From contig CP086569.2 of NCBI GenBank assembly GCA_009914755.4, forward strand, positions 9,920,001-9,984,000: a DNA stretch of 64,000 nt. The letters run 5' to 3'. The stretch is from the human T2T-CHM13v2.0 reference genome, Homo sapiens. The notes under the pieces were generated by a model. That model did not search any database and was not told where the DNA came from. It saw only the letters and a program-made list of their open reading frames with translations. Positions 29,881 through 57,737 of the stretch are shown piece by piece; the first letter of the stretch is position 1, and the number at the start of each line of letters is the position of its first letter. Both the position numbers and the translations under genes were made by a program.

Positions 29881-31639
29881 CTGAGGTTTTAATCATTGTT
29901 CTATTTTCTTCATGTACACATATTTTAGAGTGATTGAAATCACATATTTTATTTACTTACTCAACACTTGGTAGGATTTTAAATGTAATGTTTTCATTCA
30001 CTACAGTATTGTGAATAGGTTAAACCTTGTATAGTGTCGTCATTCTGTCTTTCATAAATTATTCAAGAATTCTGATGCTGTTTTTCTCCCACCTGAGGAG
30101 AACATGCAGATAGTTATAAAAAATTGTGTGAGTGGGTAGGTATGAATACATAATTTGAAAGCATAGTAAAGTTCACAAATTCAATTTCACATTTGTATTT
30201 TGCATCATTTTGAAATTTTTATTTGCTGACACATGAAATTCTGTATTGACTTTCATGTTAAATAGACACTTCTGAATCAATCTGAAGAATGAAAACAATC
30301 CAAGGCCAAGCATTAGTTCAGGAAGTAAGTAGAAAGCAGTTGTTATGTAGAAAAAGCATATTTATTGAAGGTATATTTAGAGATATTTTAGGAGGCTTAA
30401 GTCAATATTTTGTTTTTGTTGTTCTGGTGTTTTATCATACTGTGAGCAGACTGTAGCATCACTAGTTATAGTCACTAGGCTACCAAAGTCTCAGGGCTGC
30501 AGTAATTATTATTGAAGAAAGTGGCAGTGTGGTTGGCTGTTTAAGGAGACTAGAGGACTTAGGAGTTTGCGCTCAAGGCATAAGGGCCTGGTTTAGTGGG
30601 TGGCCTTCTTTTGCTGAAGTAGATAAGATCCAGGAGAAGTGTGAACTCACTGTAGTAGCTAGGGCTTTGAGACTATTGAAGCCTATATGTCTCCAACTGC
30701 CATTGCCAGATATTGGTCTGCACATAATGGCACTTCCTGGACTCACTGACTCCTGTAAATTCAAATGCAGAATTTGGATTTAAATCCCTGTTCCAACATC
30801 TTAAACTTACATCTAATAAATGGATAATAAAATATGTATTCAGAAGAAAGTGAGACATCAGATAAGTACACAAGAAAATCATCCTGATCAAATACATTCG
30901 AAAATATTACTACAAAAAAATCAGAGGATTAAGCCTTAAAAAGTTATTTAATTGGGGAAATAGGAAAAGGTTAGACTGTTTTCAACTTTGAGGTGTGAAG
31001 ATACTATTATTAGAATATGGGAATTATATATAATGTCTAATTTGTTTCAAGTGCAGCATGCTAGCTATTTAGTATGGCTAGAGATTAACAACCCATGTAA
31101 GAAAACTCAGAGATTAACAACAAATTTTTTTCAGAGATTTTTTTCTGTAATTAAAGACTTTTAAAATGGTTTCCTGTTGATCAATGATTCACTTAAATTT
31201 TTCATTTAAGCATATGCTGTATACCCTTTAACATAGGGACAAAGTTATATTTTCTATCATGTAGATAGAAAAAACATTTGACTGTGTACACATTTGCATT
31301 AGAGTCTTTGGCCTGGGTAATGAAGCAAACAATGGAACTGCCTATGTCAGGGTACAGGTGGGCACAGCTGGAAGCTTCCATCACTTGCACCTTTAACATT
31401 TCTAGAAACTCATCATTCTCTCCTAGGAAGAAAAATGGAGTATAACCATCCTAAGGAACATATGTTACATTTAAACACTAAGTATTGAGATAAAACCATG
31501 AACTGTCTTATCACTGTGTCATCATTACTTTAAACTTGTACGTATAACCTATACAAATAAATTCAGTTTATTTTGTCACCATTACCATTTTACATGATAT
31601 GTTTATGTATTTCATTCGCTTTCTAGTCCTTGATTTTTT

Positions 31640-32228
<589 letters not shown>

Positions 32229-32970
32229 CTTTAATCACTTTTTAAATGCCACCCTTCAAAAGTAATAAGTAAATTTTTACTTACGAAATTCCAAATTCCA
32301 AGTCAAGTTCAGCTTCTTTTTCACAAAGAGGGAAAAACAAACAAAACAAAACAAAAACTTCTTTTTCCTTTTTTTTTAGTCACCAAAGAGTTGGAAAGCA
32401 AATCATCTCTACTTTAGTTTACAAAATTGACTGTACAGAGAAAGATACTCATATAATTGTTTTCAGATCTAAAATCCTATGAAGTTATCATCAGAACCAT
32501 CAACTTATAACATGAAAACAAATTTCATATTGGGTTTTTTATGTGCATTAAATATCTTATAATTAGTAATTTATACAGTTGTGATCATACTTCTTCCTTG
32601 AACCATAATATTAAAAATATGAACCTCATTTTGTAGAACTGCTACCCTAATAAGAAAACTCACTGCTGACCTGGTATAATAATCTGTGGTGCAGACAGCC
32701 AGCATTCTGAACTATTCAGGTTCTTCAGATAGCCCAAGGGTGCTGAGAGCCAAATGGGAGTCTGGACATCTTGGAGGAGTAGCAATGCCAGGTCATTCCT
32801 TGCTGCCCCATTCACCAACTGGCACCTCTCATGCAGTAGAATGGTAGACACCTTCACAACTCTCATTGGTGCCCCAGGGTGCCTCAGGCCCAGAATCACA
32901 GCAGTGTCTTCAGGATTCCTGTATGCATAGGCAAATATTTATTATAGTACATTCTTTAGAAAACCTGAAA

Positions 32971-33790: not shown

Positions 33791-36700
33791 CTCAACCTTA
33801 AGTCTACATCAGGCTTTCCAGTATATTGCTTTAGTCATGATACACAAGGTCCCTAGCTCATCTTCGGAGAAATCAGAAATCTATGAATAAAGAGTCCATA
33901 GACAATGGGATTGCAGAGGAATTAACTAACAGAGGTACTATAAGCCAAACACAGTGAGACAATTTCTTTTTAGCCTAAAAAAAGTTATCTGTACAAGTGA
34001 GATGGTCATGCATTATAGAAGTGAATTTGGACATAGACACCATCAGCAATGTAATTATGGGATAATGAGTTATACAGTTGAGAAGAGGCAGGCACAATCT
34101 TACACGTTGCTAACATAGTGGGCAGCTGTGAGAACCCAAGAGCTGCTAACTATGGCAGACATGACTGCCAAAGATGTTGATCCCAGCCTTCCAAGGCATG
34201 GCGTATTCAAGAGAAATCTGATCTGCTGAAGCTGAGGAGGAATAATAAGCTAACTGTGCTAATTTAAATAGAATTGCCATTTGTAGACCATTTTTTAAAG
34301 TTTTAAATCCCTCCTATTTCTGCTATTTGAGTCAGAATTGTTAAATATGACTAACAAAGACAAACTTCTACTTCTTCTGTGTTTATGAATTTTTCTTGAA
34401 AATAAGTATGCCTCTTATTATCTTTCCAAGATCATAGTTTCTTTAAGTCCTAGCTTAAGTTTATTTAATCAAAATACTGGGAGTCATTCCAGCTTTCTCC
34501 CCCATTGCAACATTTATATATCTATGATTTTAGCTACTTAGAAGTCACTGAAGTAGATAGGCAACAAAAAATGCAATGATTTGAAGATATTAGATAAATA
34601 ATGAAAAATTTGGAGATAAAGCACCTGTCTCTAAATTGGAGAGGGCTTATCTTCATAAACTTATAATGTTAGTAAGATACCAAACCAATACTTTAAATAG
34701 AAAATCCAAGTCTGAGTTTCAGGAAAGAGCTCATATTTTTAAAATCATTTGAGAGTTCCTCAGAAAATTGAGTGGAAGATATACTCATCATTATATAAAT
34801 AGGGAGAGAAAAATGGTGAAGATAATCTGTCTATAGAAGGGGTAAGCAACTAGAGATGAAATTGGAAGCATAACTAAGATCTTATATGTAATTGTCTCTG
34901 AATTAGACTTTGGAGGATGTGAGCAAATAATTATGGCCTCCTTTATGTTTTAAATGTATTATTCACCGTAGCTATGGCAATGGGTGTTAGGTATAAAATA
35001 GCTGTGGTTAAGAGCATGTTTAATTGATGAGACCGAAAGAGATGTCTCAATTTCCAAGAAAATAAGAGGATAGACAGTAATGTGAAATAGCCATTGCTAA
35101 TATTCTGGTAGGTTTTCTAGCAGCCAAGGGAAGGGAGAAACTGATAATCCCAATGTAATGCAGTCTGGTACACCGTCACCTACATCTCATTACTTACCAA
35201 CTATGCTGTTTCCAAATATCATATCTTTAACTTAAAATATACTTAATTTAAAATAACTCTATTACAAATGTAAGCTTCTGTGTGGTAGTAAAGAAATATC
35301 TTTGTATTAGGAGAGTGTGTCTTAATGATAACCCAGTTCATCTTTTGACATGGGAATTTGATCAGTCCATTGTATTTATGTAGTATCAGAATATACATTT
35401 AAGATAAGTATAATAATCATGTTATGTGTTCTATATCAGAGTAATCTATGGGGATACTCTGGGAATTGTATCATATATCAAGTATGAAATGCCTTTGTAA
35501 GCCAAAAAGAAAATAATTTCTATGATTTGGTAGATAAAAAACTCATGCATTTCTCAGGAAGAGCTTTAGCTCCCATTTCCTTCTCTCTATTATTTTATAT
35601 TTCCATTTTCTTCTTCCTTTACTTGTCCTACCAGGTTTTTGAGCCTTACTCTGAGGCTGTGGCAGAGAGATGAAATGTGGCCACATTGAAGTGGGAGTGG
35701 GGATAAAAGCTGAAGCATTTGTAGAAGTAGACTGAAAGGGACATGGAAGCAGAAGTAGTCATGGGCCCTTGGTGTTGCCAGGGTCCATGGCTAGGTCATG
35801 TCACTCCTTGGAGCCAGAAAAGGAAAGAGTGCACTTGCCTGAAGACATAAGGCTTTGTGCAATGCTCCTCAAAATGACTCAAGATTCCCACTTGCACCCA
35901 AGTGTCCTTTTGGTGTAGATGGCACACCAAAGGTGCTGCCAGTTCACCCTGCAAGAAACAAGAGAGAAGATAGCAATCAATATTTTGAAGGAGGGCCAGA
36001 AGTAACTTTTGGTGTTCAAGATATTCCTCTTTCTCCCTGGCAGTCACACCCCGTGAATTTGTCACCTTACAGCCAGGCTCCCACATAGCTTTCTGGGCCT
36101 CCACACAAAAAGTGAATTCCTTCAGCTTTGGGCAAAATTTGGTACAAGTGCTGACTTGTAGGACGCTCAGGTGCTGTTTTTGCAGAACTACAGGACTTCC
36201 TGATAGAAAACAGAGAAGAGGTGTTTGTGTTTGCTTGTTTTCAAACCTAGCCTAGATTAGAGAGAGAAGTATGGTGAAGAGAAAGACAAGTTATTTATTA
36301 TTCAAGAGAGGATAATATTATCTTTCCAAACATGCTTCTCTTCCATCCCACTGTCTTCTTCATTACTCAGCCCTCATAAGGGACCAACAGGTAGTCAACA
36401 GCCATATACTAGTATAAATTTCTCCTGTTCCAGACTCTCCTTTGGGCATATAGGAAGGACCAGGGTTTGAAAATATAGTGGCTGCTTCAGGAAGATCAAT
36501 ACAGGTCCCAGAAGTCCCTTGGGACCTAGGTAGGGTATGGCACAGTCAATGCTGACAGTCTGAGCAGAATCCAGAAGATGATTAAGCCCCACTTGGACCA
36601 GGACCAGGGCTGCTGAGTTTTTCAGGGGAAAAAAGTCAATAAAAAGTCATATTATTTCTACATTTCAATTTGAATAAAGCCCTGGAGGTCACATGAATCA

Positions 36701-36978: not shown

Positions 36979-37013
<35 letters not shown>

Positions 37014-37020
37014 ACACACA
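36979..37020. repeat. (CA)n microsatellite, about 20 repeats with one interruption
   Basis: Read directly from the sequence. Confidence 0.95.
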
Positions 37021-38039
37021 AATAAAGGGAAATATATTCATTTATAATCTCAATGTTGTTATTGTTTTATAATGATATCTTAATCTTAAGATGAATTACT
37101 TAGACTCACATAAAATTGGCACATCTAGCTGTAGTAAGGAACCACTGTTCATTTAGTATGGAGCCAGCACAGACATGAGAGAAAGTGGTACAGCAACTAT
37201 CCAAGGGAATTCACCAATTTCTGACTCCCAGCAGTTGGGACAGAGGGTGACATTGCCAGGGCATAATCCACACTCTGCAGAAGGAATATACATATGGAAT
37301 AGAGTGAGATTAGTGTTACTACTCTTCCATTTCTAAAATCTAATTTTAGGTTTTTAGGAATAAGCTTGGAAATTCAGTATCTTCAATCTGAGAAAATCCT
37401 TGGAAATATACATTATTCATCCTACAAGTTTAGATATACTACAGAGGTTATCTGCATGCTTTTCCTTCAAATAATAATTTAATGTATATATAAATATATA
37501 TCTTATTATTTATATCCAAGATATTATACTATTATCCAATAATGTGTGTATATATTTATATACCTCAAGTGGAATAATAAATCCTTTCTAAGAAGTAAGA
37601 CTATCTTTAAAATACTGTTCTCTGAATAGAATTGTGTTTATAAAACATAGCCCACAAATCCTGTCTGGCAAAAATAAGATATTCTCTCAATATTGGGATG
37701 TCTGTGCTGATTCATACAATAACATAAATTTTGGTTTTGCAAAGGTTTGAGGACATAACCTCTGATCTTACAAACTGTGGTTTTAGGGTTCAACAAGAGT
37801 CTTTGTACCAGGTATAATAACTTAAACATATGACTAGACCAAAGGTGTCTGTGGTTTCATGAGAAATAACAACTATTCTGAAGAGCCAGAAAGCCTGCAA
37901 ACTTTCTTTCCAGATCACAGCTAGTTGACACTCAACCAGGGAAACATTTGAGTTCTGAATGCCTAAGAGGTTGTTGTTCAGACTTGGGTCCAGATTGTCC
38001 AGGCATCAGATGAGGTTATTTTGTTAAAAGTGTGGCTGC

Positions 38040-38320
38040 AGCAGCATGCAAGAATGAAAAAGAATGAGAAAGAATGGACTCTTCAGGAAATGTTGAGGAA
38101 AATATTTTCTGAAGGGCGTTAGCAGAAGAGGCTATGGAAAGGAGAATAGGAGAGGAGACAAGAGGAGAAATAACTGAACAAGATGGGAAAATGAAGAATG
38201 AAGGGAATGTACCAGAAGAAAAGACGGAACAAGAAGGGCACAGTGTACATGGAGATGGAAGAGAATAAGAAAGAGGAAGGAAAATGGAGGAAGAAAGAGA
38301 GATAAGAGAGGTACCTGGGA
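38040..38320. repeat. Purine-rich (GA/GAA-rich) low-complexity tract
   Basis: Reads aggaaggaaaatggaggaagaaagagagataagagagg and similar. Confidence 0.7.
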
Positions 38321-38569
38321 CATCAGGGCATTGTTTTATTTGGATAATTTTTAATTTCCTGCTTTAGTGCTGGTAAACAGCTCTTCCAGGAAGCCAAATG
38401 CTTGTAAGCTGGCTTGGTTGGAGATAATTGATTTCATATTGGCTTTCTGAGGCAGTTATCTCAGTTAACAGAGAGATAAAATACTGATCTGGGAAAGAAA
38501 CAGTTTTTTACAGGCAAAAAGAGTGCACGTTTAGACAAGCAGCCAAAATGACTCATTAATAGTGTCTCT

Positions 38570-41500
38570 CAGACTCAATTTCAGGAGGAGAAAACTATGC
38601 ACTTATATCAGCCTTATAATGGGTTCTGGGTCTTAGTATTTCTGTTTCAGGCTGGATCCAGGTTCTTACTATGCCAGCTTTAAAAACACCAAAGGATTCA
38701 ATAATATCAGCTTCAGACTGGATCCAGTGTCTGTCTGCTTAGGTTACAGGCAGTATCCAAGATATGAGTGTTCTTCCCATAAGCAAGGTCCATGTTTTGA
38801 CTACTGGAGATGGAACCTTGGGCCAGAATCTTAGTAGGAAGGATTCAGACTGGATAAAAGATGGAATTATATCAACTACCAGCTGGATCCAGGGACTGAC
38901 TCTTTGAGATTTTGAATAAGCCCGTGATCTGCCTTTATTCATGTGAATGTAAAATGAAGATCTGACTATATCAGTTTCCTGCTTGATCCAGGATCTCACT
39001 GCTTGGGTTTCAGGTGGGTCCAGGTTGGATATGTAGCAACTCTTTGCTGAGTCTAGGGCCAAAATATACCAACTTCAGTCTGGGGCCAGGGAGAGAGCAG
39101 CTAACTTTCAGGATGAATCCAGGGTCTAACTGTATCACATTGAGTCTATAAGCAAGATGTGACTGTATCAATTTCAGTCATGTTGCAGGGTTTCATTTCT
39201 TGACTTACAGTCCAAATTTGGAATACTTCAGTTTCAGGTTGGTTCCAAGATCTTATTGAATTCGAATCTGGAACCAGTATCTTATCACTGTATTGGCTTC
39301 AGAGTGGGTCCAGGGATGAATTTCAGAATAAGTCTATTGTATGATTGTAGCAGGTACATGCTGAGCCCAAGGGTAATTTATGCTAATTTGATTCTGGGTC
39401 CAGAAGTGTGTCATTTGAGATTCAAATTTGGTCCAGGTCCAAACTGCAGCGCTTTGAGCTGGGGACCAACTTGTCAACATACCTGCCTCAGGTCAGGTCC
39501 TAATTGCTTGAGATTCAGGCTCAGTCCATTGTTTTATTTTATCAGTTTCAGAATGGGCCCAGAGTCTGACTGTATTGGTTTCAGCATAGATCCAAGGTTG
39601 CAGAACATCACCTTCAGACTGGGTCCAGGGTCTGACTGCATTCTTTTCAGATTGGTTCAATGGGTGGATTATTTGCCATTCTGGCTTCATCCGGGTAGTA
39701 ACTCTGTGAGAATAAAGTTGAGTACCATTTCTTCTTACACTGTTTTGGGTCTGAAACCCAGCACTCAGAGTATTAATGTCAGGCATGGTCAAGCATTTCA
39801 CTGCCTGCATTTCAGCCTGATAAAGTAGTGTATCAGACAAGGATCGTATTAGTTTTACCTTGAGTCCAGGGGTGGATTGTGCCTGTTTCAGTCCAGATCC
39901 ATAGTTTTACTGTAGCAGCTTCAGAAATGATCTGGGGTCTCATTGTACCTACTTCAGATTGGGTACACAGGAAGGAGGCATCAGTTTCACATTGGATCCA
40001 TGTTATAAATGTTGTAGTTCTCTGTTTGGCCCAGGATTCAATTTTACCAAGTTCAAAGGGAGTAAATGTGCTTAATGTTTGAAATTCTGACTGAGCCCAA
40101 GGTTTTATTTTTTCTGTTCCAGTTTTAAACAAAGTTCTGTAACTAGAGCTTCAAGTTTGGACCATGGTTTTGCTGCCTGAGGCATAGGCACTATCCAAGA
40201 TACAAGTGTTCCAAATTTAGGCAAGGTCCATTCATCGATATTTTCAATTTAATGATGTGTCCATAAAATTGATGCTTGATTTTCATCTTGGATCAAAGGT
40301 TGTATGGTATCAGGTTGAGACAGTAATGAAATTCTATAAATAATTTAGCTTCAGGCATTGCCCAGAGTTTCTTAGCTTCAGTTTTAAGCATTGTCCAAAA
40401 TGAGCCCATATCACTCTGTGTATAAGAATTTGCAGCGGGAAAATCATCATAGGTCCACTTTGTGTCTGTGGAAGCTGCGGTCTCTGTCCATGTGTTTACC
40501 ACTGGAGACTCAGACTGGGATCATGGCATGATTGATTCAGACACAGTTAGTGTCCAGGCTTTTTCTGCTGAAGAGATATCCTGTGTCCATGGTAACACTG
40601 AGGAAACTATGGCCCATGCCCCTGGATTTTCTGCTGAAGATTCATCATATGTCCACGATGTAAGTATATCAGATACAGTCTGTGTCCAGGTAATTCCTAC
40701 TGGATACTGGGCCTGCAGCCACAGTATAATTTTGTCAGATACTGGCTGTGTGGAGGTAATGACTGCAGAAGATTCAGCCTGAGTCCACAGTGCAACTATA
40801 TCAAATATGGGATGTGGCCAGGGACTTGTTGCTAGAAGTAAAGCTTTGGTCCATGGGGTGACTTGGAAACTATTGACTCTATCCACGATTGACTGCTAGA
40901 GATACAGGCTGGGTCCACAATGATAATTTATTAAATATAGGCAGTAATCAGGGATTTACTGCTGAAGATTCAAATTGGATCAATCCTATGTATGTCTCAG
41001 ATACAGGCAGTATCCACATAATTAGTGCTGCAGATTCAGATTGGGACCATAATCTGGTTGTATTAGGTGAAGGTTGTGCACAGTCCTTTACTGTTGCACA
41101 TACAGCCTGTGCCCAAATTGTAGCTTTATAAAAAACAGGCTGTGTCCAGGTATTTATTGCTGGAAAATCAGCCTTGGTCCAGAGTGTAACTTAGGAAGCT
41201 ATAGCCTCTGTCCAGGTATTTATGGGTAGACATTCAGTTTGATGCCCTGTTTTCAGTGTAGCATGTAAACTTTGTGAAAAGAAGATTAATGATGGAGTTA
41301 CAGGCTGTGTACACAGTGTGAGTGTATCAGCAACAGGATTTGTCAAGGCATTTACTGCCGAAGATTCCGTCTGGGTCCATGGTGTGACTGTATCAATAGT
41401 CTTATCCTGCAACAGAGGACCTGGGGCTGGAGATTTGGACACTGTCCAGATGTTTACAATTGGAGACTTAGACTTCATCATGGGATTTACAGCTGGAAAT

Positions 41501-43160
41501 TCAGCCTCATTCCAAGTGATTACTTAGATGTTTTGTTTAGGTCCATAGTGTGACTGTATCAGGTACAGGTTGTAACCAGAAATTGATTGCTGAAGATTTG
41601 GTCTGTGTCCATGTTATGACTGTATCATCTAGAGCCTCTGTCCTGGGAATTATTATTAGAAATACAGCCATGTACTGCAGTGTGACTATACCAGTCACAG
41701 CCACTGTTAAGTGACTTATTGCTGGCAACATATCCTGGGTCCATGATGTGACTTTCTCAGTTTTAGACTGGCTCCATGGATTTACTGCTACATAAACATT
41801 CTTAGCCAATGGTTTCAATCTATCAGTAGAGTTTGTGTACAGAGATTATTGATTGTAGAATCAGCCTGAGTCCACAGTAAGACAATTTCTGCTTCAAGCT
41901 CTGTGGAGGGATTTACTGCTACTCTTACCTGCTTGGTTCTGTGGTATAACTAACTGTAGCAGGTATAGGCTGTGTCCAGGCATTTACTTTTGGACATTTA
42001 GTCTTGGTCCACTGTGTGAGGATATCAGTTTCATATTGTTTCCAGAGATGTATGGCAGGTGATTTGACTTGGTTCCATAGTTTGATTGTATAACCTATTG
42101 CCCTTGTCAAATGCTTTACTGCTGAAGACTCAGCCTGGGTCCATGGTATGAGTGTATCAGATACAGATTTGATCCAAGGCTTTCGTGTTAAAAATTCAAA
42201 CTGAGTCCACGAAATGTATCAGCTACAGGTTCTGTCCAGTACCCTACTACTGGAGGTTCAGCCTGAGGCCATAATGTGTCTGTATCATTCACAGGCTGTG
42301 TCCAAAGATTTCCTGCTGGAAATTCAGACTGTGCCGTTAGTGTGATAGTAGCAGCCCAAGGCAGTATTCATGGAAATCCTGCTGTTAATTCAGCCCCTTT
42401 CTATAGTGTGATACTATCAGCTATGGAGGTTGTCCAGGTATTCACTGATAGATATTCAATGTGGGTCCAAGCTATGACTATCAAAGGTATAGGCTGTGTC
42501 CATGGAATTTCTGCTGGAGATACAGCCTGGGCCCATGGTATGACTGTGGAAGTAACATCCTCTATGCACAGATTTACTGTTGGAGACTTGGCTTGTATCC
42601 ACAGGATAATGTTATCAAATTCAGGTAGTGTACAGAGTTTTACTGCTGAAGACTCATCTTGGTCCCATGGTTTGATTGTATAAGATAGATACTGTGTAAA
42701 TGGATTCATCGCTGGAGAGGCATCCTGAATCCATGGTATGTACTATCACCTAGAAACTTTGTACAGAGATTTATGGCTGGAAATTCAGGCTTGGTCCACA
42801 GCTTGTCTGCATCAGCTATTGTCTATGTCTATGAATTTACTGCTAGAGAATCATTCAGGATCAACTCTTTGACTGTATATGTTTCAGACTGTGTCCATGC
42901 ATTTCATTCTATAAATTCAGCCTGATTCCTTGGTAGGACTGTTGCGGAAGTCAGGAACCCTGAATGGAGGGACCAGCTGAAGCCATGGCAGAAGAACATA
43001 AATTGTGAAGATTTCATGGACATTTATTAGTTCCCCAAATTAATACTTTTATAATTTCTTACGCCTGTCTTTTTTTTATTTTTAAACTTTTTAGTAAAGA
43101 AATTAACAAAATTGACCAAATGTCAGGTGAAAGAAAGCATATTAATCTTAAATACATATA
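38570..43160. repeat. Degenerate tandem satellite, part 1. It has a 33-bp unit, and from about 40.4 kb onward a 66-bp dimeric higher-order unit.
   Basis: Near 39.5 kb the units repeat like atcagtttcagaatgggcccagagtctgactgt. Near 41-42.7 kb they repeat like ctgtgtccaggtatttactgctgaagattcagcctgggtccatggtgtgactgtatcagatacagg. There are hundreds of consecutive periodic copies in one orientation. Confidence 0.8.
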
Positions 43161-43918
43161 ATTATTATTATTTTTCTTAATTAATTTTTTTTAATTTTAA
43201 GTTTTAGGGTACATGTGCACATTGTGCAGGTTAGTTACATATGTATACATGTACCATGCTGGTGCGCTGCACCCACTAACTCGTCATCTAGCATTAGGTA
43301 TATCTCCTGATGCTATCCCTCCCCCCTCCCACCACCCCAAAACAGTCCCCAGAGTGTGATATTCCCCTTCCTGTGTCCATGTGATCTCATTGTTCAGTTC
43401 CCACCTATGAGTGAGAATATGCGGTGTTTGGTTTTTTGTTCTTGCGATAGTTTACTGAGAATGATGATTTACAATTTCATCCATGCCCCTACAAAGGACA
43501 TGAACTCATCATTTTTTATGGCTGCATAGTGCATGGTGTATATGTGCCACATTTTCTTAATCCAGTCTATCATTGTTGGACATTTGGGTTGGTTCCAAGT
43601 CTTTGCTATTGTGAATAATGCCACAATAAACATATGGGTGCATGTGTCTTCATAGCAGCATGATTTATAGTCCTTTGGGTATATACCCAGTAATGGGATG
43701 GCTGGGTCAAATGGTATTTCCAGTTCTAGATCCCTGAGGAGTCGCCACACTGACTTCCACAATGGTTGAACTAGTTTACAGTCCCACCAACAGTGTAAAA
43801 TTGTTCCTATTTCTCCACATCCTCTCCAGCACCTGCTGTTTCCTGACTTTTTAATGATTGCCATTCTAACTGGTGTGAGATGGTATCTCATTGTGGTTTT
43901 GATTTGCATTTCTCTGAT
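43160..43918 (-). mobile_element. L1 3' end fragment (ORF2 C-terminus plus 3' UTR) inserted into the satellite
   Basis: This is the reverse complement of the L1PA 3' end, for example ggtgcgctgcacccactaactcgtcatctagcattaggtatatctcc. An A/T-rich tail lies at 43160-43200. Confidence 0.85.
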
Positions 43919-43919
43919 G

Positions 43920-44890
43920 TATGCCTGTCTTTACTGCAATCTCTGAACATAAATTGTGAAGATTTCATGGACACTTATCACTTCCCCAATCAATACCCTT
44001 GTGATTTCCTATGCCTGTCTTTACTTTAATCTCTTAATCCTGTCATCTTTGTAAGCTGCGGAGTATGTATGTCACCTCAGAACCCTGTGATGTTTGTGTT
44101 AACTGCACAAATTATTTGTAGAGCATGTGTGTTTGAACAATATGAAATCTGGGTACCTTGAAAAAAGAACAGGATAACAGCAATGTTCAGGGAACAAGAG
44201 AGATAAACTCTGACTGCCGGTCAGCTGGGCAGAACAGTGCCATATTTCTCTTCTTTCAAAAGCAAATGGGAGAAATATCGCTGAATTCTTTTTCTCAGCA
44301 AGGAACATACCTGAGAAAGAGAATGTGTCCCTGAGGGTAGGCCTCTAAAATGGCCATTTCAGGGGGTGGCCGTCTTTTATGGTCAAAGCTGTAGGGATGA
44401 AATAAGCCCCAGTCTCCTGTAGTGCTCCCAGGCTTATTAGGAAGAGGAAATTCCTGCCTAATAAATTTTGGTCAGACCGGTTGTCTGCTCTCAAACCCTG
44501 TCTCCTGATAAGATGTTATCAATGACAATGTGTGCCTGAAACTTCATTAGCAATTTTAATTTTGTCCTGGTCCTCTGGTCCTGTGATCTTGCCCTGCCTC
44601 CATTTGCCTTGTGATATTCTATATACCTTGCGAAGCACAGGATCTCTGTGACCCACATGCTATTCGCACACTCCCTACCCATTTGAATATTACTAATAAA
44701 AACTTGCTGGTTTTATGGCTCTGGGGGCACCACGGAGCCTGCCAATGTGATGTCTCCCCCAGACACCCAGCTTTAAAATTTCTCTTTTGTACTCTGTCTC
44801 TTTATTTCTCAGAGTGGCCGACACTTAGGGAAAATAGAAAAGAAGGTATGTGAAATATTGGGGGTGAATTTCACCTGATATCTGGCTGAA
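43920..44890 (+). mobile_element. LTR-like element, family not classified
   Basis: It starts with tgtgaagatttcatggacacttatcacttcc and carries an aataaaaacttgctgg polyadenylation-like signal near 44700. About 60 bp of its 5' end is also found just left of the L1, at 42985-43090. Confidence 0.4.
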
Positions 44891-46900
44891 ATTCCCCTGA
44901 TAGGACCATATCAGCTGTAGCCTTTCTCTAGGGATTCATTGCTGGAGTTTCAGTGATAATCCATGGTTGAGTCCAAGACATTTGTGGATGTTCAGCATGG
45001 ATACATGGTAGGAATATATCAGGTAACCAGGGACTTACTTCTAGAGTTTCAACCAGAATCCATGTTGTGACTATATCAGTTTCAGACTGTGTCCAATGAT
45101 TTAATAATAGTGATTCAGCCTGGATACACATGATCATATCAGATAGAGTTTATCCATGAATTCATCGCTAGTGATTCAGCATGTGTCCCTAGTGGGATTA
45201 TATCCATTTCCAACTGTTTCCAGGAATGTTTTGCTGAAGACTCAACCTGGATTCATAGTGTTATTGCTTCAGTATCAAACTGTATCCAGTAATTTACTGC
45301 TGGCAAATAAGCCATGGTCCACAATGAGACTGGATTAAATTCAGATGGGAGTCAGGTATTTCCTTCTAGATATTCAGGCTGCAATTTTGTCCTTGGATTT
45401 ATTGGTGACATTTCATCAAGGATCAATTGTATGACGGTTTCAGCTGTAGTTTTTCCCAGGGATTCATTGTTGGAAATCTATCCTGGATCCATGGTGTGAC
45501 TGTCTTAGCCATAAGACTCTGTCAAGGGAAATAAGGCTGGAAATTCTTCTTGGTTCCAACATGTGACTTCATTCGATACAGAGTGTGTCCAGAGATTTAC
45601 TGTTGGAGATTTGGCAATAGTTCACAGTATGATTCGATCAGTTTCAGACTGTCTTCAGGATGTTTACCCTTGTAATTCAGCCTTTGTCCATGTTGTGAGT
45701 GTATCTGCTAACATCTTGGTCCAAGATAAGAAATTATTGGAGTTTCATTCTGGGTCCACAGTGGGACTGTGTGAGTTTCAGATTGTGTCCAAGGATGTAA
45801 TTCTTGAGACACTCCCTGCATCCATTGTGTTAATACAGTAGCTTTACCTTGTACCCAGGGGTCAATTACACCAATGTCTTTCTGATTCCAGGGTCTCAAA
45901 GTATCATCTTCAGCTTGGGTCAACAATTTGACTTTAACACTTTCAAACTTGCCCCAGAGTCTAAATGCATAAGCTTCATGTTGTATCCAGTCTTTTAACT
46001 TATCAGCCACAGGTTGGTTCCAAAACATCACTATTTCAGTTTCAGACTGTATCCAATGGTGATCTGTCAGAGTTACTGGTTCTCTCCACTGTGTGACTGT
46101 CTCGGATTGAGACTGAAATAAAAGTTTGATGATATCAGCTTCAGTGTGATTTCAGGGTCTGGATCTATCACCTCCAGTTTGGGGCCTGGGTACCACTGTT
46201 TCCATCCCAGTTTGGGACCAGTACCTAACTGGATCTGCTTCTGGTTGGGTCCAGTGTTTTTCTTTCCATTCTTGAGTCTGGGCTCTGGGCCTCAATATTT
46301 TAAATTTATGCTGAATGCCGAGTCTCATTCTTTCAGTTTCAGTTTGTAACAATGGTTTAATCATATCAGCTCTCAAGTGAATCAAGAGTCTTCCTGATTG
46401 AGATTCTGGCTAGATCCAGGTAAGGACTATGGCTGTTTTAGGCTGACTTCAGGGTCTGATCATGTCAACTTTGGAGTGAAGGAAGGGCTCAATTATATTC
46501 ATAATAGGATGTATTAAGATCCATATCTGCATCAGGGGTTTGAGTATAATAGCCTCATGTTTACTAAATGGACTACATCTATTGATTTGATTTGAGGGCC
46601 TGATCATACTGGTTTTCTGTTGCACCCAAGCCTTAATATTGTCACCTTTTGACTTAGCACATGAAGAGTATGCAGTATAGAAGAAATCCAGAACTGAGTG
46701 GACTCAGGTTCAGTGAGAATCCAGTATCCATCTGAGCTTTCTATAGTTTCTTGAGGATCCAAATACATTTAAAACTAGCTGACACCATGTTTCAATGGTA
46801 TGGGTTACTGTAGTATGCTGAGATCAATCTTCATCGAGGGATGAATGAGCCCATAGTTCAGTTTTATTATCTATGAAAGGTACTGGTGGAATCTAGTTGT
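44890..46900. repeat. Degenerate tandem satellite, part 2. It continues the same array after the L1 and LTR-like interruption.
   Basis: The same 33/66-bp monomer family resumes. After about 46.05 kb it grades into monomers closer to the 38.6-40.3 kb type. Confidence 0.75.
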
Positions 46901-47889
46901 AAGTTACCGGTTTAGCGCCAGGGTTAGCTCTATGCACTACATGATACATTTTTTTTTTCTATTGCTCTCTTCCCTGGATTGAATCTACATCACTGTTCCT
47001 GTTTTATAAGATAAAAATTGTTTCCAAGCTTCAACTTCAAGGGTAATTTCTAGCCGAGGTCTAACTACAAGTTGCCCATGAGATGGAACATTAATAGATT
47101 GAACTTGAGACAGATGAGTATCCCTCTTAACAGGAACTTGAGATCCACCTATCCCACTTGAAAAGAGAAACCACGATCTACCAGCATTAACTAACTGCAG
47201 AGTATGAAGCCTAATTATACTAGCTAATGTATTAATCTAGAATCTTGCTGAATCAGTTACAGCTTAATATTTATAATTTATTGTATTTTTCTCAGGAAAA
47301 TTCCAGGGTATAGGTTTAATAGCTGTTTGGGAGTTCTGGGGTCCAGAAAAAAAGAAATATTGAGATTTGTCCATTTCTGGGGTGCCCCAGCATTCAGCTG
47401 TATCAGGATGATCCCACAGTTTGGCAACAGGAGAAATCCAGGATCATACCATTGGGAATTTGCTAGCTGAAGAGAGGTGACCACTTTGAAAGTGTAATGG
47501 TCTATTGGCATAAAATAGTCTCTATTATTTGAACCAAAAAAACATTGAATGAAGGTTCCAGTGCCTTCTGTTCACTGAGGAAGTGCTTAATCTTCTCCTA
47601 CATGTTTGTTCTCAGAATCCATGAAAGAGCAAAGTGACAGAGCCTGTGTTAGAGCTAAGTGTGTTTTGTGGACTATCTTCTACTCCAGGATAAAATTGCA
47701 AGGTAGAGAAAAAAATGGGACCCAGTGGTTTCTGGGATGCCTTGATAAGCCATCTCATTCAAGATATGTATTGGGCTGTCCTGATGAAAAGTACAGGGTC
47801 ATAACAGGCTTCTGAGGTAAAACTGACCAGGCCTACCAGTTCCCAGTGACTGCCAAAGAGGCAAAGAACAGGACGACTTTGCTCTACGT

Positions 47890-48290
47890 GAATGGTTGGA
47901 AACAAAGTTAACCATATATATTAGAAATACTTATAGACATGTAATATACATGGATTACAATGTATAATGCATAAATTACTTATGTATGCAATACATATAC
48001 AAATTATAAAATACACAGATACATATCTTGTATATGTTTATGAATACTTATATCTATAAATTGGTTATATAGCTTATATGGTTTATACAAATATTAAATT
48101 AAAATATAATAAATTATAAGTTATACTTTTCTATCACATGTAAATTTTATATTACTTGATGGGCAGTAATAAATATTACATGGTACATACTTCAAGAGTT
48201 CCATATAACACTTAGGCTTAAATAATTCTAACTCTGGTTAAAACAGTAAAATCAAATACTAGAAAGAAATTAGAGGAAGGTTCCAAACAA
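47890..48290. repeat. AT-rich block A. It is duplicated as block B at about 51100-51480.
   Basis: The two blocks are about 80% similar, for example ..tatgcaatacatata..attataaaata.acagatacatat.. and ..tctatcacatgtaaattttatattacttgatgg.cagtaa.aaat.ttacatggtacatac.. Confidence 0.6.
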
Positions 48291-51104
48291 TAAAAAATCA
48301 CCTACATACTCATTACATTTGTTGAAGCCATCATTTGTTTGGTCTCCCTGCTTGATTCTGATACCCACTTGCAGCTTACAGTTTGTTCTCCCAATAGCCA
48401 GAATTACACTCAGAGTAAAAGCACTTATTCTAAAATTGACTACATAATTGGAAGTAAAACACTCCTCGGCAAATGCAAAATAACAGAAATCATAACAAAC
48501 AGTCTCCCAGGTCACAGTGCAATCAAACTAGAACTCAGTATTTAAAAATTCACTCAAAAGTGCACAACTATGTGGAAACTGAACAACCTGCTCCTGAATG
48601 ACTACTGGGTACATAATGAAATGAAGGCAGAAATAAAGATGTTCTTTGTAACCAATGAGAACAAAGACACAGCATACCAGAATCTCTGGGAAACATTTAA
48701 AGCAGTGTTTTGAGGGAAATATGTAGCACTTAATGTCCACAAAAGAAAGTAGGAAACATCTAAAATTGGCACACTAACATCAACATTAAAAGAATGGAGA
48801 ACAAGAAAAGCAAAAGCAAACAAATTCAAAAGCTAGGAGAAGACAAAAATAACTAAGATCAGAGCAGAACTGAAGGAGACAGAGACATGAAAACCCTTCA
48901 AAAAAATCAATGAAGCCAGGAGCTGCTTTTTGAAAAGATCAACAAAATAGATAGGCCACTATCCAGACTAATGAAGAAAAAAATAAGGAAGAATCAAATA
49001 GACTCAATAAAAAATGACAATGGGGATATCACCACTGATCCCACAGAAAAACAAACTACCATCAGGGAATGCTATAAACATCTCCATGCAAATAAACTAG
49101 TAAATCTGAAAAAATGGATAAATTCCTGGATGCACACACCCTCCAAAGCCTAAACCAGGAAGAAATTGAATCTCTGAATAGACCAATAACAAGTTCTGAA
49201 ATTGAGGCAGTAATTAGCAGCCTATGAACAACAACAACAACAAAATCCAGGAGTAGACGGTTCACAGAAGAATTCTACCAGAGGCACAAAGAGGAGCTGG
49301 TACCATTCCTTCTGAAGCTATTCCAAACAATAGAAAAAGAGGCAATCCACCCTAAGTCACTTTATGAGGCCAGAATCATCCCGATATCAACATCTGGCAG
49401 AAACACAGCAAAATAAGAAAATTTCAGGCCAATATCTCTGATGAACATTGACGCAAAAATCCTCAATGAAACACTGGCAAACCAAATCCAGAAGCACATC
49501 AACAAGTGTATCCACCATGAAGAAGTCAGGTTCATACTTGGGATGTAAGGCAGAATCAACATACACAAATTAATAAACATAATCCATCACATAAACAGAA
49601 TCAATGGCAAAAACCACATGATTATCTTAATAAATCCTGAAAAGCCCTTCGACAACATTCAACACAACTTCATGACAAAAACTCTCAATAAAATAGGTAT
49701 TGATGGAACATATTTCAAAATAATCACAGGTACTTATGACAAAACCACAGCCTGGAAGCACCTGGAAACTTTCATTTTAAAAACCTGCACAAGACAAGGA
49801 TACCCCCTTTCTCACCACTCCTATTCACCACAGTTTTGGAAGTTTTGACAAGGGCCATCAGGCAAGAGAAAGAATGAAGTGTATTCAAATGGAATAAGAG
49901 GAAGTCAAATTGTCTCTGTTTGCAGATCTCAAGATTGTATATTTAGAAAACCCCACTATCTCAGCTCGCAAAAATCACAAGCTTTCCTGTACACCAATAT
50001 CAGACAAGTAGAGAGTCAAATCATGAGTGATCTCACATACACAGTTGCTACTAAGAGAATAAAATACCTAGGTATAAAATATACAAAGGATGTGAGGGAC
50101 CTTTTCAAAAACTACAAACCACAGCTCAAGGAAATAAGAGAGGACACAAATACATGGAAAAACATTCCATGCTCATTATAGGAAGAATCAATATTTTGAA
50201 AATGGCCCTACTGTGCAAAGCAATTTATAGATTCAATGCTATCCCCATAAACCTACCATCTAACAATGGACAATCTAACCATCTGACAACAGACCAATAT
50301 CCACAATCTACAAAGAACTTAAACAAATTTATGAGAAAAAAACTAAACCAACCCATCAAAAACTGAGTGAAGGATATGAACAGATGCTTCTCAAAAGAAG
50401 ACAGGTATGCAGCCAACAAATATATGAAAAAAACTCATCATCACTGGTCACTAGAGAAATGCAAATCAAAACCACAATGAGATACCATCTCATGCCAATT
50501 AGAAAGGTGATCATTAAAAAGTCAGGAAACAACAGATGCTGGAGAGGATGTGGATAAATAGGAATGCTTTTACACTGTTGGTGGGAGTGTAAATTACTTC
50601 AACCATTGTGGAATACAGTCTGATGATTCCTTAAGGATCTAAAACCAGAAATAGCATTTGACCAAGCAATGTCATTTTGGGTTATATACCCAAAGGATTA
50701 TAAATAATTCTACTATAAAGACACATGCACCCTTCTGTTTATTGAGGCATTGTTCACAATAGCAAAGACTTGGAACCAACCCAGATGTCCATCAATGATA
50801 GACTGGATAAAGAAAATGTGGCACATATACACCATGGAATACTAAGCAGCCATAAAATAGGATGAGTTTATGTTCTCACTCATAATTTGTAGTTGAACAA
50901 TGAGAACATATGGACATAGGGAGGGGACATCACACACCAGTGCCTGTTGGGGGTGGGGGGCTAGTGGAGGGATAGCTTTAGGAGAAATATATAATGTATA
51001 TGATGATTTGATGGGCTCAGCAAACCACCATGGTGGATGAATACCCATGTAACAAAACTGCACTTTCTGTACATGTACCCCAGAACTTAAAGTATATAAA
51101 AAAT
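48290..51104 (+). mobile_element. L1 (L1PA/L1PB-like), 5'-truncated, running from ORF2 aa about 150 to the 3' end. It is degenerate.
   Basis: ORF2-like translation: [58 protein letters not shown] and, near the end, [16 protein letters not shown]. Confidence 0.75.
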
Positions 51105-51479
51105 ACATATAGACATATACTATACATGAATTAAAATATATATAATGTATAAATTTAATCTATATGCAATACATATATATTATAAAATATACAGATACAT
51201 ATATTGAACATGTTTAGGAACACATATTTATAAATTAGTTATATAACTTATAGGTTTTATACATACATTAAATTATAAGATATTGACTTAAAAGTATAAA
51301 CTATACTTTTCTATCATATGTAAATTTTATATTACTTGATGGACAGTAAGAAATTTTACATGGTACATACCTAATGATTACCATATAATACTTAGGCATA
51401 AATAATTTTAACTCTGGTTAAAAGAGTGAAGTCAAATACTAGAGGGAATTCAGAGGAAAGATGTAACAATAAAAAATCA

Positions 51480-51715
51480 CCTACATACTCAGCATCGCTA
51501 TCTGAATATTATTTACACCATCAGCCAAGTAACTTTCGGCAAAGCACAACTTATACAGTCACATAAAATGACTGCTTGTATCACCTCCTCTGCCATTACG
51601 TTTGTTGAAGCATCATCATTCGTTTGGTCTCTCTGCTTGATTCTGATACTCACTTGTAGCTTAGTTTGTTCTCCTGGTAGCCAGAATTATACTCGGAATA
51701 AAACCAAAAGGATTT
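51480..51715 (+). mobile_element. Second copy of the L1 ORF2 5' region, truncated. It follows a second copy of the AT-rich block.
   Basis: Similar to 48290-48420: tttgttgaagc(c)atcat..gtttggtctc.ctgcttgattctgatac.cacttg.agctta. Confidence 0.6.
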
Positions 51716-51954
51716 GTCTTTGATCTCACTTAAGCGTTTTCCTTTGTTCATCTTGCTACATGATGACAGTATGACTATTTGCTTAATTCTAGTGTCGGAA
51801 TTATTTCAATGATTATGTTCTCTGCCTGGAATTCTATTCCTCCAAATATGTTCCTAGATTACTTCCCCAAAGGTTTAGTCTTTGCTCAGTTAAAGCATTT
51901 TTAGAGACACTTGACTTCTGGCTTAGGATTGACTTGGCAATGCAGGCTTTTTTG

Positions 51955-52311
<357 letters not shown>

Positions 52312-53790: not shown

Positions 53791-53932
53791 AGACATGTGA
53801 CTTCAAAAATACTTCTTCCAATATCTCCCTATCACCTAATTAACTATGAACTCTAGTTGATGTAAAAATGTTTGTAAAATGTGCTTAGGTTAAATGTGCC
53901 AGTGTTATTGATAGTACCCTTAGTACTTTTAA

Positions 53933-54108
53933 TGTTTGGATGGAAAAGCAATAAAAGTAGAATAAGCCAAGAAACCATTTTCAAAGTGGTGGTTAGCAGA
54001 TACCACCACCTTCTTCAAGAAACAGAAGCCCTTCAGGAAGTCTGAGATCTGCAAGAGGAAGTAGTGGAGGAACAGGAGGGTGTCTGCCCTCACATGAAGG
54101 GCACTTGG
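53933..54108 (+). pseudogene. RBMY-like exon 3 homologue in copy 2 ([12 protein letters not shown].., with a frameshift)
   Basis: A Gln codon reads TAA (gaa TAA gcc). One base is deleted in the KKPSFQSGG segment. The acceptor AG reads AA. A GGTAATG donor is retained. Confidence 0.7.
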
Positions 54109-54848: not shown

Positions 54849-54869
54849 AGATATATCTATATATCTCTA

Positions 54870-54920
<51 letters not shown>

Positions 54921-54923
54921 ATC
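54849..54923. repeat. (TATC)n / (ATCT)n tetranucleotide STR. About 13 pure repeats plus degenerate flanking repeats.
   Basis: Read directly from the sequence. It lies immediately 5' of the Alu at 54925. Confidence 0.95.
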
Positions 54924-54924
54924 A

Positions 54925-57613: not shown

Positions 57614-57737
57614 CATTAAATTTAATGGAAGAGAGAATTATGGAGGTCCTCCACTCGAGAAGCCAATCACTTCATGGAGAAATGACCATATGTTGTCAAG
57701 AGATGGTGGTTATGGAATTAAGGATAGGTAAAAGAAA
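57614..57737 (+). pseudogene. RBMY-like exon 5 homologue in copy 2 (..RENYGGPPLEKPITSWRNDHMLSRDGGYGIKD)
   Basis: Matches RBMY [34 protein letters not shown] in a single frame. A GTAAAAG donor lies at 57738. The 5' end lacks the ggtcccatatca segment present in copy 1. Confidence 0.7.

What the first reader, a model, noticed from the sequence alone, without database searches (positions are those of the whole stretch)
38570..46900. About 7.4 kb degenerate 33-bp satellite (66-bp dimeric form), in one orientation, with monomer subfamilies grading along the array
Hundreds of periodic copies are present. One monomer type (..atcag.ttcagactgggtccagggtctgactg.) occupies the edges, at 38.6-40.3 kb and 46.05-46.9 kb. 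A dimeric 66-bp type (ctgtgtccaggtatttactgctgaagattcagcctgggtccatggtgtgactgtatcagatacagg) occupies the centre. Because 33 is divisible by 3, both strands keep stop-poor frames, which show as many ORFs of 60-190 aa in the track. I cannot assign the array to a named satellite family from memory. It is not alpha, beta, HSATII/III or DYZ1 pentamer type.
Basis: seen in the sequence. Interest (0 to 1): 0.65.

Follow-up and report, generated by a model that had tools for sequence, protein, structure and literature searches.

The report
Decayed repeat exon of PRSSLY pseudogene
The "33-bp satellite" is the rotted remains of a protein-coding 11-amino-acid repeat inside the giant exon of PRSSLY, a testis gene already known to be a dead pseudogene in monkeys and apes, so it is real but ordinary.

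Summary
The periodicity is real. Identity at lag 33 is 0.42 and at lag 66 is 0.44, against 0.26 in shuffles (z about 31-33). That makes about 179 monomer equivalents, all in one orientation. The edges are 33-bp type and the core is 66-bp type.

It is not a satellite. Read on the minus strand, the unit encodes an 11-residue repeat, P-W-T-Q-x-E-x-x-x-V-x. The array lies inside a ~10-kb exon, followed by trypsin-like exons. The locus is collinear with bat and sea-lion loci. In the bat the same periodic zone is one stop-free frame of 2103 codons.

The gene is PRSSLY (dog DYNG). It has a published giant exon and a published "array of divergent repeats", and it is reported as a transcribed pseudogene in human, chimpanzee, gorilla, orangutan, rhesus and marmoset.

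In this window the exon needs at least 54 stops or frameshifts (bat: 1). The protease exons also carry stops and frameshifts, and the splice donor is lost.

The window is a simian sequence but not human: it is 78-87% identical to the published human and rhesus models.

Verdict: already known, low interest.

The parts
37850..47885 (-). Relic of the PRSSLY giant exon. It is about 10.0 kb here, or about 8.1 kb without the transposon insert.
   Evidence: It is collinear at the DNA level (65-77% identity) with bat L001 5282-12925 and sea lion L002 12922-22731. tblastn gives P0002 aa 96-500 at 47887-46670 and P0001 aa 568-964 at 39029-37847. An AG acceptor lies near 47886. The donor GT seen after ...HETT in the bat reads 'ac' here at about 37849. 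The exon needs at least 54 disablements.
44917..46470 (-). The 5' part of the repeat array in gene orientation. It is core-like up to about 46.05 kb and 33-bp edge type beyond that, fading towards 46.9-47.6 kb.
   Evidence: nhmmer copies span 44895-46467. Sliding lag-33/66 identities support it. Stop-free relics such as ...HPWTQSETHTVPLWTQNETP are visible.
42940..44910 (.). Transposon insertion that splits the array. It is an LTR-like element flanked by the 6-bp direct repeat TAGGAC (42934-42939 and 44911-44916). A 5'-truncated L1 3' end is nested at about 43063-43925 on the minus strand.
   Evidence: The sequence was read directly. The ORF at 43469-43909 (-) is a primate L1 ORF2 C-terminus; that recognition is from my own knowledge. 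No 33-bp copies occur here. L1-like matches to other window sites were seen. The LTR class could not be verified because no Dfam was available.
40300..42939 (-). Core of the array. The 66-bp dimer encodes the 22-mer PVSDTVTPWTQAESSAVNTWTQ.
   Evidence: Lag 66 (0.48-0.53) exceeds lag 33 (0.40-0.43). The minus frame 0 of the consensus is stop-free. The strongest nhmmer copies are here, E 1e-11 to 1e-19.
38600..40300 (-). The 3' edge of the array in gene orientation. The 33-bp monomer encodes ..D.VRPWTQSE...
   Evidence: Lag 33 is at least as strong as lag 66. It aligns with bat and sea lion at the DNA level, in blocks, over most of this stretch. P0001 aa 166-476 maps to 40138-39268 at 44-47% identity.
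46471..47885 (-). Weakly periodic linker plus the C-terminal end of protease-like domain 1 (...PVLCLFGSHWELVGLVS...).
   Evidence: P0002 aa 96-170 maps to 47887-47663 at 65% identity with an in-frame stop. P0002 aa 96-500 maps to 47887-46670 at 44%.
37109..37329 (-). Trypsin-like domain 2, first exon. It is disabled by a frameshift.
   Evidence: Overlapping tblastn HSPs lie in frames -2 and -1, with a stop in the -2 continuation.
36377..36625 (-). Trypsin-like domain 2 exon, with an in-frame stop (YGC*LP).
   Evidence: 66-68% identity to dog P0005.
35636..36221 (-). Trypsin-like domain 2 exons, including a short intron that the alignment read through. There is a stop (GVT*PSH) and a frame change.
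   Evidence: HSPs in frames -3 and -1. The 39-residue insert between GCK and GELAAPLVC is intron-like.
34103..34226 (-). Trypsin-like domain 3, first exon. It carries a frame change.
   Evidence: HSPs 34226-34155 (-3) and 34156-34103 (-1).
32666..32917 (-). Trypsin-like domain 3 exon.
   Evidence: 79% identity to dog and bat proteins.
31277..31423 (-). Trypsin-like domain 3 exon.
   Evidence: 61-75% identity.
30495..30767 (-). Last exon: end of domain 3 plus the hydrophobic C-terminal tail. It has an in-frame stop (MP*AQT).

Best explanation
The array is the repeat-coding part of the giant exon of PRSSLY (protease, serine-like, Y-linked; first described in dog as DYNG). It lies on the minus strand and is preserved here only as a long-dead pseudogene in a simian primate.

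A 33-bp in-frame unit encoding the 11 residues P-W-T-Q-x-E-x-x-x-V-x was amplified by tandem duplication. In the core it evolved into a 66-bp (22-residue) higher-order unit. This happened before bats, carnivores and primates diverged.

In species with a working gene, the array is translated as a long linker. It sits between an N-terminal trypsin-like domain and two C-terminal trypsin-like domains, and none of the three has a complete catalytic triad.

The repeat sequence itself drifts almost neutrally, yet the frame stays open. I infer this is because any stop or frameshift would cut off the conserved downstream domains.

In the simian lineage the gene died. Since then the exon has collected stops, frameshifts, a lost splice donor and an LTR+L1 insertion. 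The 33/66-bp periodicity is still visible because substitutions erase it only slowly. At present the DNA has no demonstrated function beyond the low-level transcription reported for simian PRSSLY pseudogenes.

Shown here: periodicity, homology, collinearity, the open frame in the bat, and the disablements in this window. Inferred: the origin by in-frame tandem duplication, the reason the frame is maintained, Y linkage of this window, and the current lack of function.
For: - The stitched minus-strand translation hits only two proteins among 5.8 billion, both mammalian proteins of this gene. One is bat P0001, which has 700 aa of the same repeats plus two trypsin domains. The other is sea lion P0002.
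- tblastn and blastn show exon-by-exon collinearity over window 48257-30495.
- Bat L001 has a stop-free frame of 2103 codons (6677-12985) covering its whole 33-bp periodic zone. It needs 1 disablement in 7.5 kb, against 10 in the sea lion and 54 here. The opposite strands need 58-71 and shuffles need 70-95.
- In the bat frame, W residues are 11 apart in 78 of 122 intervals, and the same layout of edge (..R) and core (..N, lag 22 > lag 11) units is present.
- The trypsin exons here carry stops and frame changes, and the donor GT is lost.
- Naming: homologs include 'TPA_inf: Y-linked serine-like protease-like' entries from koala and wallaby. The published human and rhesus PRSSLY pseudogene models align to the window at 78-87% identity.
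- Literature: PMC9178871 reports the giant exon, Ka/Ks of about 1 in the upstream ORF, testis-specific expression, and transcribed pseudogenes in human, chimpanzee, gorilla, orangutan, rhesus and marmoset. PMC3759724 reports a ~1300-residue array of divergent repeats in dog DYNG.
- The exhaustive HMMER search finds only 71 representatives among 1.84 billion. These include open 2357-aa and 3058-aa proteins in which 11 is the commonest W spacing.
Against: - There is no codon-position bias, either among repeat units or between the bat and sea lion orthologs (0.316/0.288/0.300 per codon position). The coding claim therefore rests on frame integrity and homology, not on the substitution pattern.
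- The exons of the first protease-like domain were not found upstream in the window.
- The chromosome and species of the window could not be determined.
- The bat copy lies 0.35 Mb from the end of a 118-Mb chromosome record, which does not look like a typical Y.
Confidence: 0.93

Rival explanations
1. It is a non-coding satellite or minisatellite that merely happens to lie in or next to a protease gene.
For: There is strong 33/66-bp periodicity in one orientation, with a higher-order dimer in the core. There is no codon-position bias among units.
Against: The orthologous zone is one 2103-codon open frame in the bat, where the opposite strand needs 58 disablements and shuffles need 70-88. The array is continuous with non-repeat coding sequence at both ends within one exon. 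TRF cannot detect it. The array edges align between mammalian orders at the DNA level, in blocks and without concerted homogenisation.
Confidence: 0.02
2. The exon is still protein-coding in this genome, as a functional PRSSLY or a shortened product.
For: Stop-free relics of 100-147 codons survive in the repeat frame. Several downstream exons keep 75-80% identity to functional orthologs.
Against: At least 25 frame switches and 29 stops are needed across the exon, which is close to the opposite strand (69) and to shuffles (71-90). A 1.97-kb transposon lies inside the exon. There are stops or frameshifts in most of the protease exons (5 of the 7 listed, including both first exons and the last), and the donor is lost. 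The literature reports no usable ORF in any simian examined.
Confidence: 0.02
3. The decayed locus has been taken over as a functional non-coding RNA, and the repeats act as RNA or DNA elements.
For: Simian PRSSLY pseudogenes are transcribed at low level, with many transcript forms in marmoset (PMC9178871).
Against: No Rfam family reaches threshold anywhere in the window. Divergence from the human and rhesus models is 13-22% (78-87% identity) in both the array and non-repeat parts, with no sign of extra conservation. Reported expression is about 0.1-0.2 TPM in human.
Confidence: 0.03

Closest known systems
PRSSLY / DYNG (Hughes et al. 2022, PMC9178871; Li et al. 2013, PMC3759724), including its simian pseudogenes
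   Same: It has the same gene architecture: a giant single exon with an array of divergent repeats, followed by trypsin-like exons. It is directly homologous to the published human and rhesus pseudogene models and to walrus, koala and wallaby entries. It is in the same pseudogene state reported for simians.
   Different: The window is not the human or rhesus copy (78-87% identity). It appears to sit outside the human-macaque pair, so it may be a New World monkey. The papers' main texts do not state the 11-residue period or the edge/core layout, and one says the long ORF is homologous only between close relatives. Here the array flanks align between primate, bat and sea lion.
PRSS55 (GPI-anchored testis serine protease; named as the closest paralog in PMC9178871)
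   Same: It has a trypsin-like fold, a hydrophobic C-terminal tail and testis expression. Bird PRSS55 is the next-best hit at 28-30% identity.
   Different: PRSS55 has a single domain, no giant repeat exon, and is autosomal. The PRSSLY domains examined here lack a complete catalytic triad.
Giant repeat-coding exons such as MUC16 and other mucin tandem-repeat exons
   Same: These are very long single exons made of in-frame tandem repeats, and copy number varies between lineages. In lizard PRSSLY homologs the same linker position holds an S/T/P-rich mucin-like stretch.
   Different: The unit here has 11 residues and is anchored on Trp. It is not S/T/P-rich, and no O-glycosylation-type composition was shown.
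Classical satellite DNA (alpha, beta, HSATII/III)
   Same: It is head-to-tail periodic DNA with a higher-order dimer.
   Different: This is a single gene-internal array. Neighbouring copies match at only about 40-50% of positions, it originated as coding sequence, and there is no sign of homogenisation.
11/22-residue proline-punctuated helical repeats (apolipoprotein A1/A4/E type) and bacterial eCIS-associated W-x10 repeats
   Same: The period is 11/22 with frequent Pro at unit boundaries. Weak hits (E 1e-11 to 1e-4) go to bacterial proteins with WIxGKADAAR 11-mers, some of which match Pfam Apolipoprotein below threshold.
   Different: No Pfam match was found for the two PRSSLY proteins tested, P0076 and P0002. 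The AF2 model is unusable, with pLDDT 32. The resemblance is probably convergent and is only a lead.

Membership tests
PRSSLY (DYNG) locus | Trypsin-like exons orthologous to PRSSLY proteins | tested here: met
   The exons at 37329-30495 match bat, dog and gopher proteins at 44-85% identity, in order and on one strand. The homolog set includes TPA 'Y-linked serine-like protease-like' entries.
PRSSLY (DYNG) locus | Giant upstream exon containing an array of divergent repeats | tested here: met
   The exon spans about 37850-47885 with a 5.9-kb periodic zone. The bat counterpart is an open 2103-codon frame. The feature is described in PMC9178871 and PMC3759724.
PRSSLY (DYNG) locus | Direct similarity to published PRSSLY sequences | tested here: met
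   The human model aligns at 78-86% over 2.8 kb. The rhesus model aligns at 87% over 1.06 kb. The walrus N-terminus maps to the sea lion locus that is collinear with the window.
PRSSLY (DYNG) locus | Y-chromosome linkage (usual in eutherians) | not testable with these tools
   No primate genome collection is available. The sea lion ortholog lies on a 3.99-Mb chromosome record, and the bat ortholog lies near the end of a 118-Mb record.
PRSSLY pseudogene (simian state) | Disabled reading frame in both the giant exon and the protease exons | tested here: met
   The giant exon needs at least 54 disablements. The protease exons carry stops and frame changes. The donor GT is lost. This matches the table in PMC9178871 supplement 3.
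Satellite DNA | Head-to-tail copies similar enough to be detected as a tandem array | tested here: not met
   TRF finds no array at score 50 or score 30. Identity at the repeat lag is only 0.38-0.53.
Satellite DNA | Non-coding origin | tested here: not met
   The orthologous array is an open frame in the bat and is largely open in the sea lion. Other open 2357-aa and 3058-aa homologs exist.
Satellite DNA | Many or large arrays at several genomic sites | not testable with these tools
   Within the window there are no copies outside 38.6-46.9 kb.
Functional protein-coding exon | Uninterrupted reading frame and intact splice sites | tested here: not met
Functional protein-coding exon | Fewer substitutions at codon positions 1 and 2 than at position 3 | tested here: not met
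   Bat versus sea lion gives 0.316/0.288/0.300. Bat versus window gives 0.287/0.280/0.289. Unit logos show no relaxation at the third position. The test is uninformative for this exon because it is negative even between the bat and sea lion copies, whose frames are open or largely open (1 and 10 disablements).
Catalytically active S1 (trypsin-like) serine protease | His57-Asp102-Ser195 triad | tested here: not met
   The alignment to bovine trypsin used the trypsin sequence from memory. Domain 2 has I/R/N, G/N and L at the three sites. Mammalian domain 3 keeps His and Asp but has Pro at the Ser position. Lizard domain 1 lacks His and Ser.
Apolipoprotein-type 11/22-mer helical repeat | Match to Pfam PF01442, or a confident helical model | tested here: inconclusive
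   There was no Pfam hit for P0076 or P0002 or for four window ORFs. The AF2 model has mean pLDDT 32, with helices in the repeat part only at very low confidence.

The most novel reading that the evidence does not exclude
The PRSSLY giant exon may be built from an 11-residue Trp-anchored protein repeat, P-W-T-Q-x-E-x-x-x-V-x, that has not been characterised. Its layout of 33-bp-type flanks and a 66-bp-type core has been kept since before primates, bats and carnivores split. Meanwhile its sequence drifts with no codon-position bias. The frame would then be kept open only as a read-through spacer, so that the downstream non-catalytic protease-like domains get translated. The simian array would be the neutral decay product once that need vanished.
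Probability: 0.35. Interest if true: 0.35.

Novelty: already known. Interest (0 to 1): 0.15.

Why it matters
For the scan, this removes a candidate new satellite: the feature is a known pseudogene. It also carries a practical caution. Coding tandem repeats that evolve at Ka/Ks of about 1 look exactly like degenerate satellites in raw sequence. A codon-periodicity test will not separate the two; only an open frame in an ortholog does.

The biological interest is modest. The window gives a dated-looking neutral decay series for one exon: 1 disablement in a bat, 10 in a sea lion and 54 here. It also shows that the array's architecture is older and more widely shared than the 'homology only between close relatives' statement in the literature suggests.

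Tried and rejected
- Tandem Repeats Finder at default and minimum score found nothing in the array.
- Pfam on four window ORFs, on P0002 and on P0076 gave no family for the repeat.
- Rfam at gathering thresholds on the whole window gave 0 matches.
- AlphaFold2 on P0002 without an alignment gave mean pLDDT 32 and pTM 0.23. The model is unusable, so no fold search was run.
- Codon-position tests, both among units and between orthologs, showed no third-position excess. The test is uninformative for this exon.
- I searched for the exons of protease-like domain 1 upstream of 47.9 kb using walrus, sea lion and lizard N-termini and using bat and sea lion DNA. They were not found. The only result was a duplicated copy of the intron/exon-boundary region at 51.1-51.7 kb.
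- I first took the window to be human, then rejected that after comparing it with the published human model.
- I first suspected that the GC-rich block at 12-15.5 kb was a CpG-island promoter. Its CpG observed/expected ratio is only 0.03-0.45.
- The weak bacterial hits with W-x10 repeats were judged convergent. They are eCIS-core proteins with alanine-rich helical 11-mers.
- The third word-indexed protein search was left unused because the exhaustive HMMER search covered the question.
Full report

Yes. Tandem Repeats Finder reports no array between 38 and 47.5 kb, even at its lowest score, but a plain autocorrelation shows the period clearly. With the transposon removed, the array is 38600-42939 plus 44917-46470, which is 5894 nt or about 179 monomer equivalents.

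- Identity is 0.418 at lag 33, 0.441 at lag 66, 0.379 at lag 99 and 0.396 at lag 132.
- Shuffles give 0.26 (z = 23-33). Unrelated lags in the same DNA give 0.258 +/- 0.015.
- Two 8-kb flanks show nothing comparable.
Lag 33 is at least as strong as lag 66 at 38.6-40.7 and 46.1-46.7 kb. Lag 66 (0.50-0.53) exceeds lag 33 (0.40-0.43) at 40.4-42.8 kb.

It is an LTR-like insertion flanked by the direct repeat TAGGAC, with the 3' end of a primate L1 nested inside it. The ORFs on both strands follow from the consensus 66-mer, which has exactly one stop-free frame per strand.

**2. What is it?**

On the minus strand the stop-free frame of the consensus reads PVSDTVTPWTQAESSAVNTWTQ. The edge monomer reads ..D.VRPWTQSE. 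This is an 11-residue unit anchored on Trp.

A conceptual protein stitched from the stop-free relics hit only two proteins among 5.8 billion:
- A Rhinolophus sinicus protein, P0001, which has 700 aa of the same repeats followed by two trypsin domains.
- A Zalophus californianus protein, P0002, which has the end of a trypsin-like domain, a linker and then the repeats.

tblastn places these collinearly on the minus strand of the window:
- P0002 aa 96-500 maps to 47887-46670.
- The repeats follow.
- P0001 aa 568-964 maps to 39029-37847.
- Trypsin-like exons follow at 37329-37109, 36625-36377, 36221-35636, 34226-34103, 32917-32666, 31423-31277 and 30767-30495.

The genomic loci of both proteins align to window 48257-30468 in the same order at 65-80% DNA identity. 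This includes the flanks of the array.

**3. Coding in relatives, dead here**

In the bat locus, the whole zone with 33-bp periodicity lies in one stop-free frame of 2103 codons, L001 6677-12985. In that frame:
- Trp residues are exactly 11 apart in 78 of 122 intervals.
- The consensus is P-W-T-Q-x-E-x-x-x-V-x.
- The layout matches the window: flank units end in R, core units end in N, and in the core lag 22 exceeds lag 11.

I ran a dynamic programme that charges one unit per in-frame stop and one per frame switch:

| Sequence | Length | Minimum disablements | Opposite strand | Shuffles |
|---|---|---|---|---|
| Bat exon | 7.5 kb | 1 | 58 | 70-88 |
| Sea lion exon | 9.3 kb | 10 | 71 | 83-95 |
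| Window exon (transposon removed) | 8.0 kb | 54 (25 switches + 29 stops) | 69 | 71-90 |

The downstream protease exons in the window are also broken. There are in-frame stops in the linker, in the exons at 36625-36377 and 36221-35636, and in the last exon. There are frame changes in three exons. The GT donor that follows ...HETT in the bat reads 'ac' here. The locus is therefore a thoroughly decayed pseudogene.

**4. Name of the gene**

Searching with the protease part returned unnamed '-like' models from many mammals and lizards, plus a koala entry called 'Y-linked serine-like protease-like'. That phrase led to PRSSLY.

Hughes et al. 2022 (PMC9178871) describe PRSSLY as follows:
- It is a testis-specific gene, usually Y-linked in eutherians.
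- Its ORF can exceed 10 kb and sits mostly in one exon.
- Ka/Ks is about 1 in that exon.
- It is pseudogenised, though weakly transcribed, in human, chimpanzee, gorilla, orangutan, rhesus and marmoset.

Li et al. 2013 (PMC3759724) first described it in dog as DYNG. [quoted passage not shown]

The human pseudogene model printed in the 2022 supplement aligns to the window at 78-86% identity over 2.8 kb. The rhesus model aligns at 87%. The walrus cDNA printed there shows the same repeats. The wallaby TPA entry also turns up among the exhaustive-search hits. The identification is secure.

**5. Where the window comes from**

Alu-like and L1PA-like sequences mark it as a primate. That recognition rests on my own knowledge. 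It is not human.

Over one stretch of about 110-125 nt that I compared by eye, human and rhesus differ by about 10%, while the window differs from each by about 14%. This suggests a lineage outside the human-macaque pair, perhaps a New World monkey. That is an inference from a short stretch, not a result. Y linkage cannot be tested with these tools.

**6. How it works**

*Shown.* The array is one exon-internal, in-frame repeat. Its architecture predates the split of primates, bats and carnivores. The flanks align between orders, whereas the core differs in length: about 1.2 kb in bat, about 4.3 kb in sea lion, and about 2.6 kb here without the transposon. This is what unequal exchange among the more similar 66-bp units would produce.

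*Shown.* There is no codon-position bias among units, where information per codon position is 0.53/0.61/0.58. There is none between bat and sea lion either, where differences per codon position are 0.316/0.288/0.300. This agrees with the published Ka/Ks of about 1.

*Shown.* None of the protease-like domains has a complete catalytic triad. Lizard homologs have the layout: signal peptide, domain 1, S/T/P-rich linker, domain 2, domain 3, hydrophobic tail. The mammalian repeat therefore occupies a linker position.

*Inferred.* The frame stays open in functional species because a stop or frameshift would prevent translation of the conserved downstream domains, not because the repeat sequence itself is constrained. 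Once the gene died in simians, the exon decayed freely. The period remains visible only because substitutions erase it slowly.

What the intact protein does is unknown. [quoted passage not shown] My structure prediction was unusable, with pLDDT 32.

**7. Rivals**

- A non-coding satellite is contradicted by the open orthologous frame, by the continuity with coding sequence at both ends, and by the lack of homogenisation.
- A still-functional coding exon is contradicted by the 54 disablements, the transposon and the broken protease exons.
- A co-opted RNA cannot be excluded. It has no support beyond the reported trace transcription, and Rfam finds nothing.

**8. Novelty and score**

The gene, its giant exon, its repeat domain and its pseudogene state in simians are all published, so this is already known.

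The papers' main texts, as far as I could read them, do not state three things: the 11-residue period, the conserved flank/core layout, and the fact that the flanks are alignable between mammalian orders. One paper says the long ORF is homologous only between close relatives. These are small additions. Interest is 0.15.

Noticed in passing
window 51093-51706 versus 47917-48423: This is a direct duplicate (83-86% identity) of the intron/giant-exon boundary region, lying about 3.2 kb upstream with L1 sequence next to it. The matching bat and sea lion DNA hits both copies.
   Followed up: partly
window 47900-64000: The exons of protease-like domain 1 are present in bat (L001 1502-2720) and sea lion (L002 9518-10690), 3-4 kb upstream of the giant exon. 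They were not detectable in the window, so they are deleted, decayed or pushed beyond the window end by L1/ERV insertions.
   Followed up: partly
window 12000-15500: This 3.5-kb block has 57-62% GC within a ~35% GC region, but its CpG observed/expected ratio is only 0.03-0.45. It is not a live CpG island and its identity is unknown.
   Followed up: partly
L001 (Rhinolophus sinicus CM080126.1, 349-379 kb of a 117.9-Mb record): The near-intact bat PRSSLY lies 0.35 Mb from the end of a very large chromosome record, not on a small Y-like record. It may be pseudoautosomal, X-linked, autosomal or on a fused sex chromosome. A single frame change at about L001 6680 separates the domain-1 tail from the 2103-codon frame; it could be real or an assembly error.
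   Followed up: no
P0101, P0104, P0113, P0115 (bacterial and metagenome proteins): These are large proteins of 1600-2000 aa. P0101, P0113 and P0115 match the Pfam eCIS_core domain (P0104 was not scanned). All four contain runs of an 11-residue Trp-anchored repeat, WIxGKADAAR. They give weak hits to the PRSSLY repeat (E 1e-11 to 1e-6), and two of the three scanned (P0101, P0115) give sub-threshold Pfam Apolipoprotein matches. The resemblance is probably convergent.
   Followed up: partly
window 60104-60222 and 61000-63500: A 24/48-bp tandem repeat (TGCTGATTGGTCCATTTT...) typical of an ERV LTR lies next to retroviral gag/pol-like ORFs on the minus strand and a 30-146-bp CT-rich tandem array at 61538-61856.
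   Followed up: no
window 36979-37020: A (CA)21 microsatellite lies in the intron between two PRSSLY protease-like exons.
   Followed up: no
window 42990-43060 versus 43935-44015: An ~80-bp segment of the LTR-like element (..cataaattgtgaagatttcatggaca..cctgtcttt) occurs on both sides of the nested L1. This is longer than a normal L1 target-site duplication.
   Followed up: no
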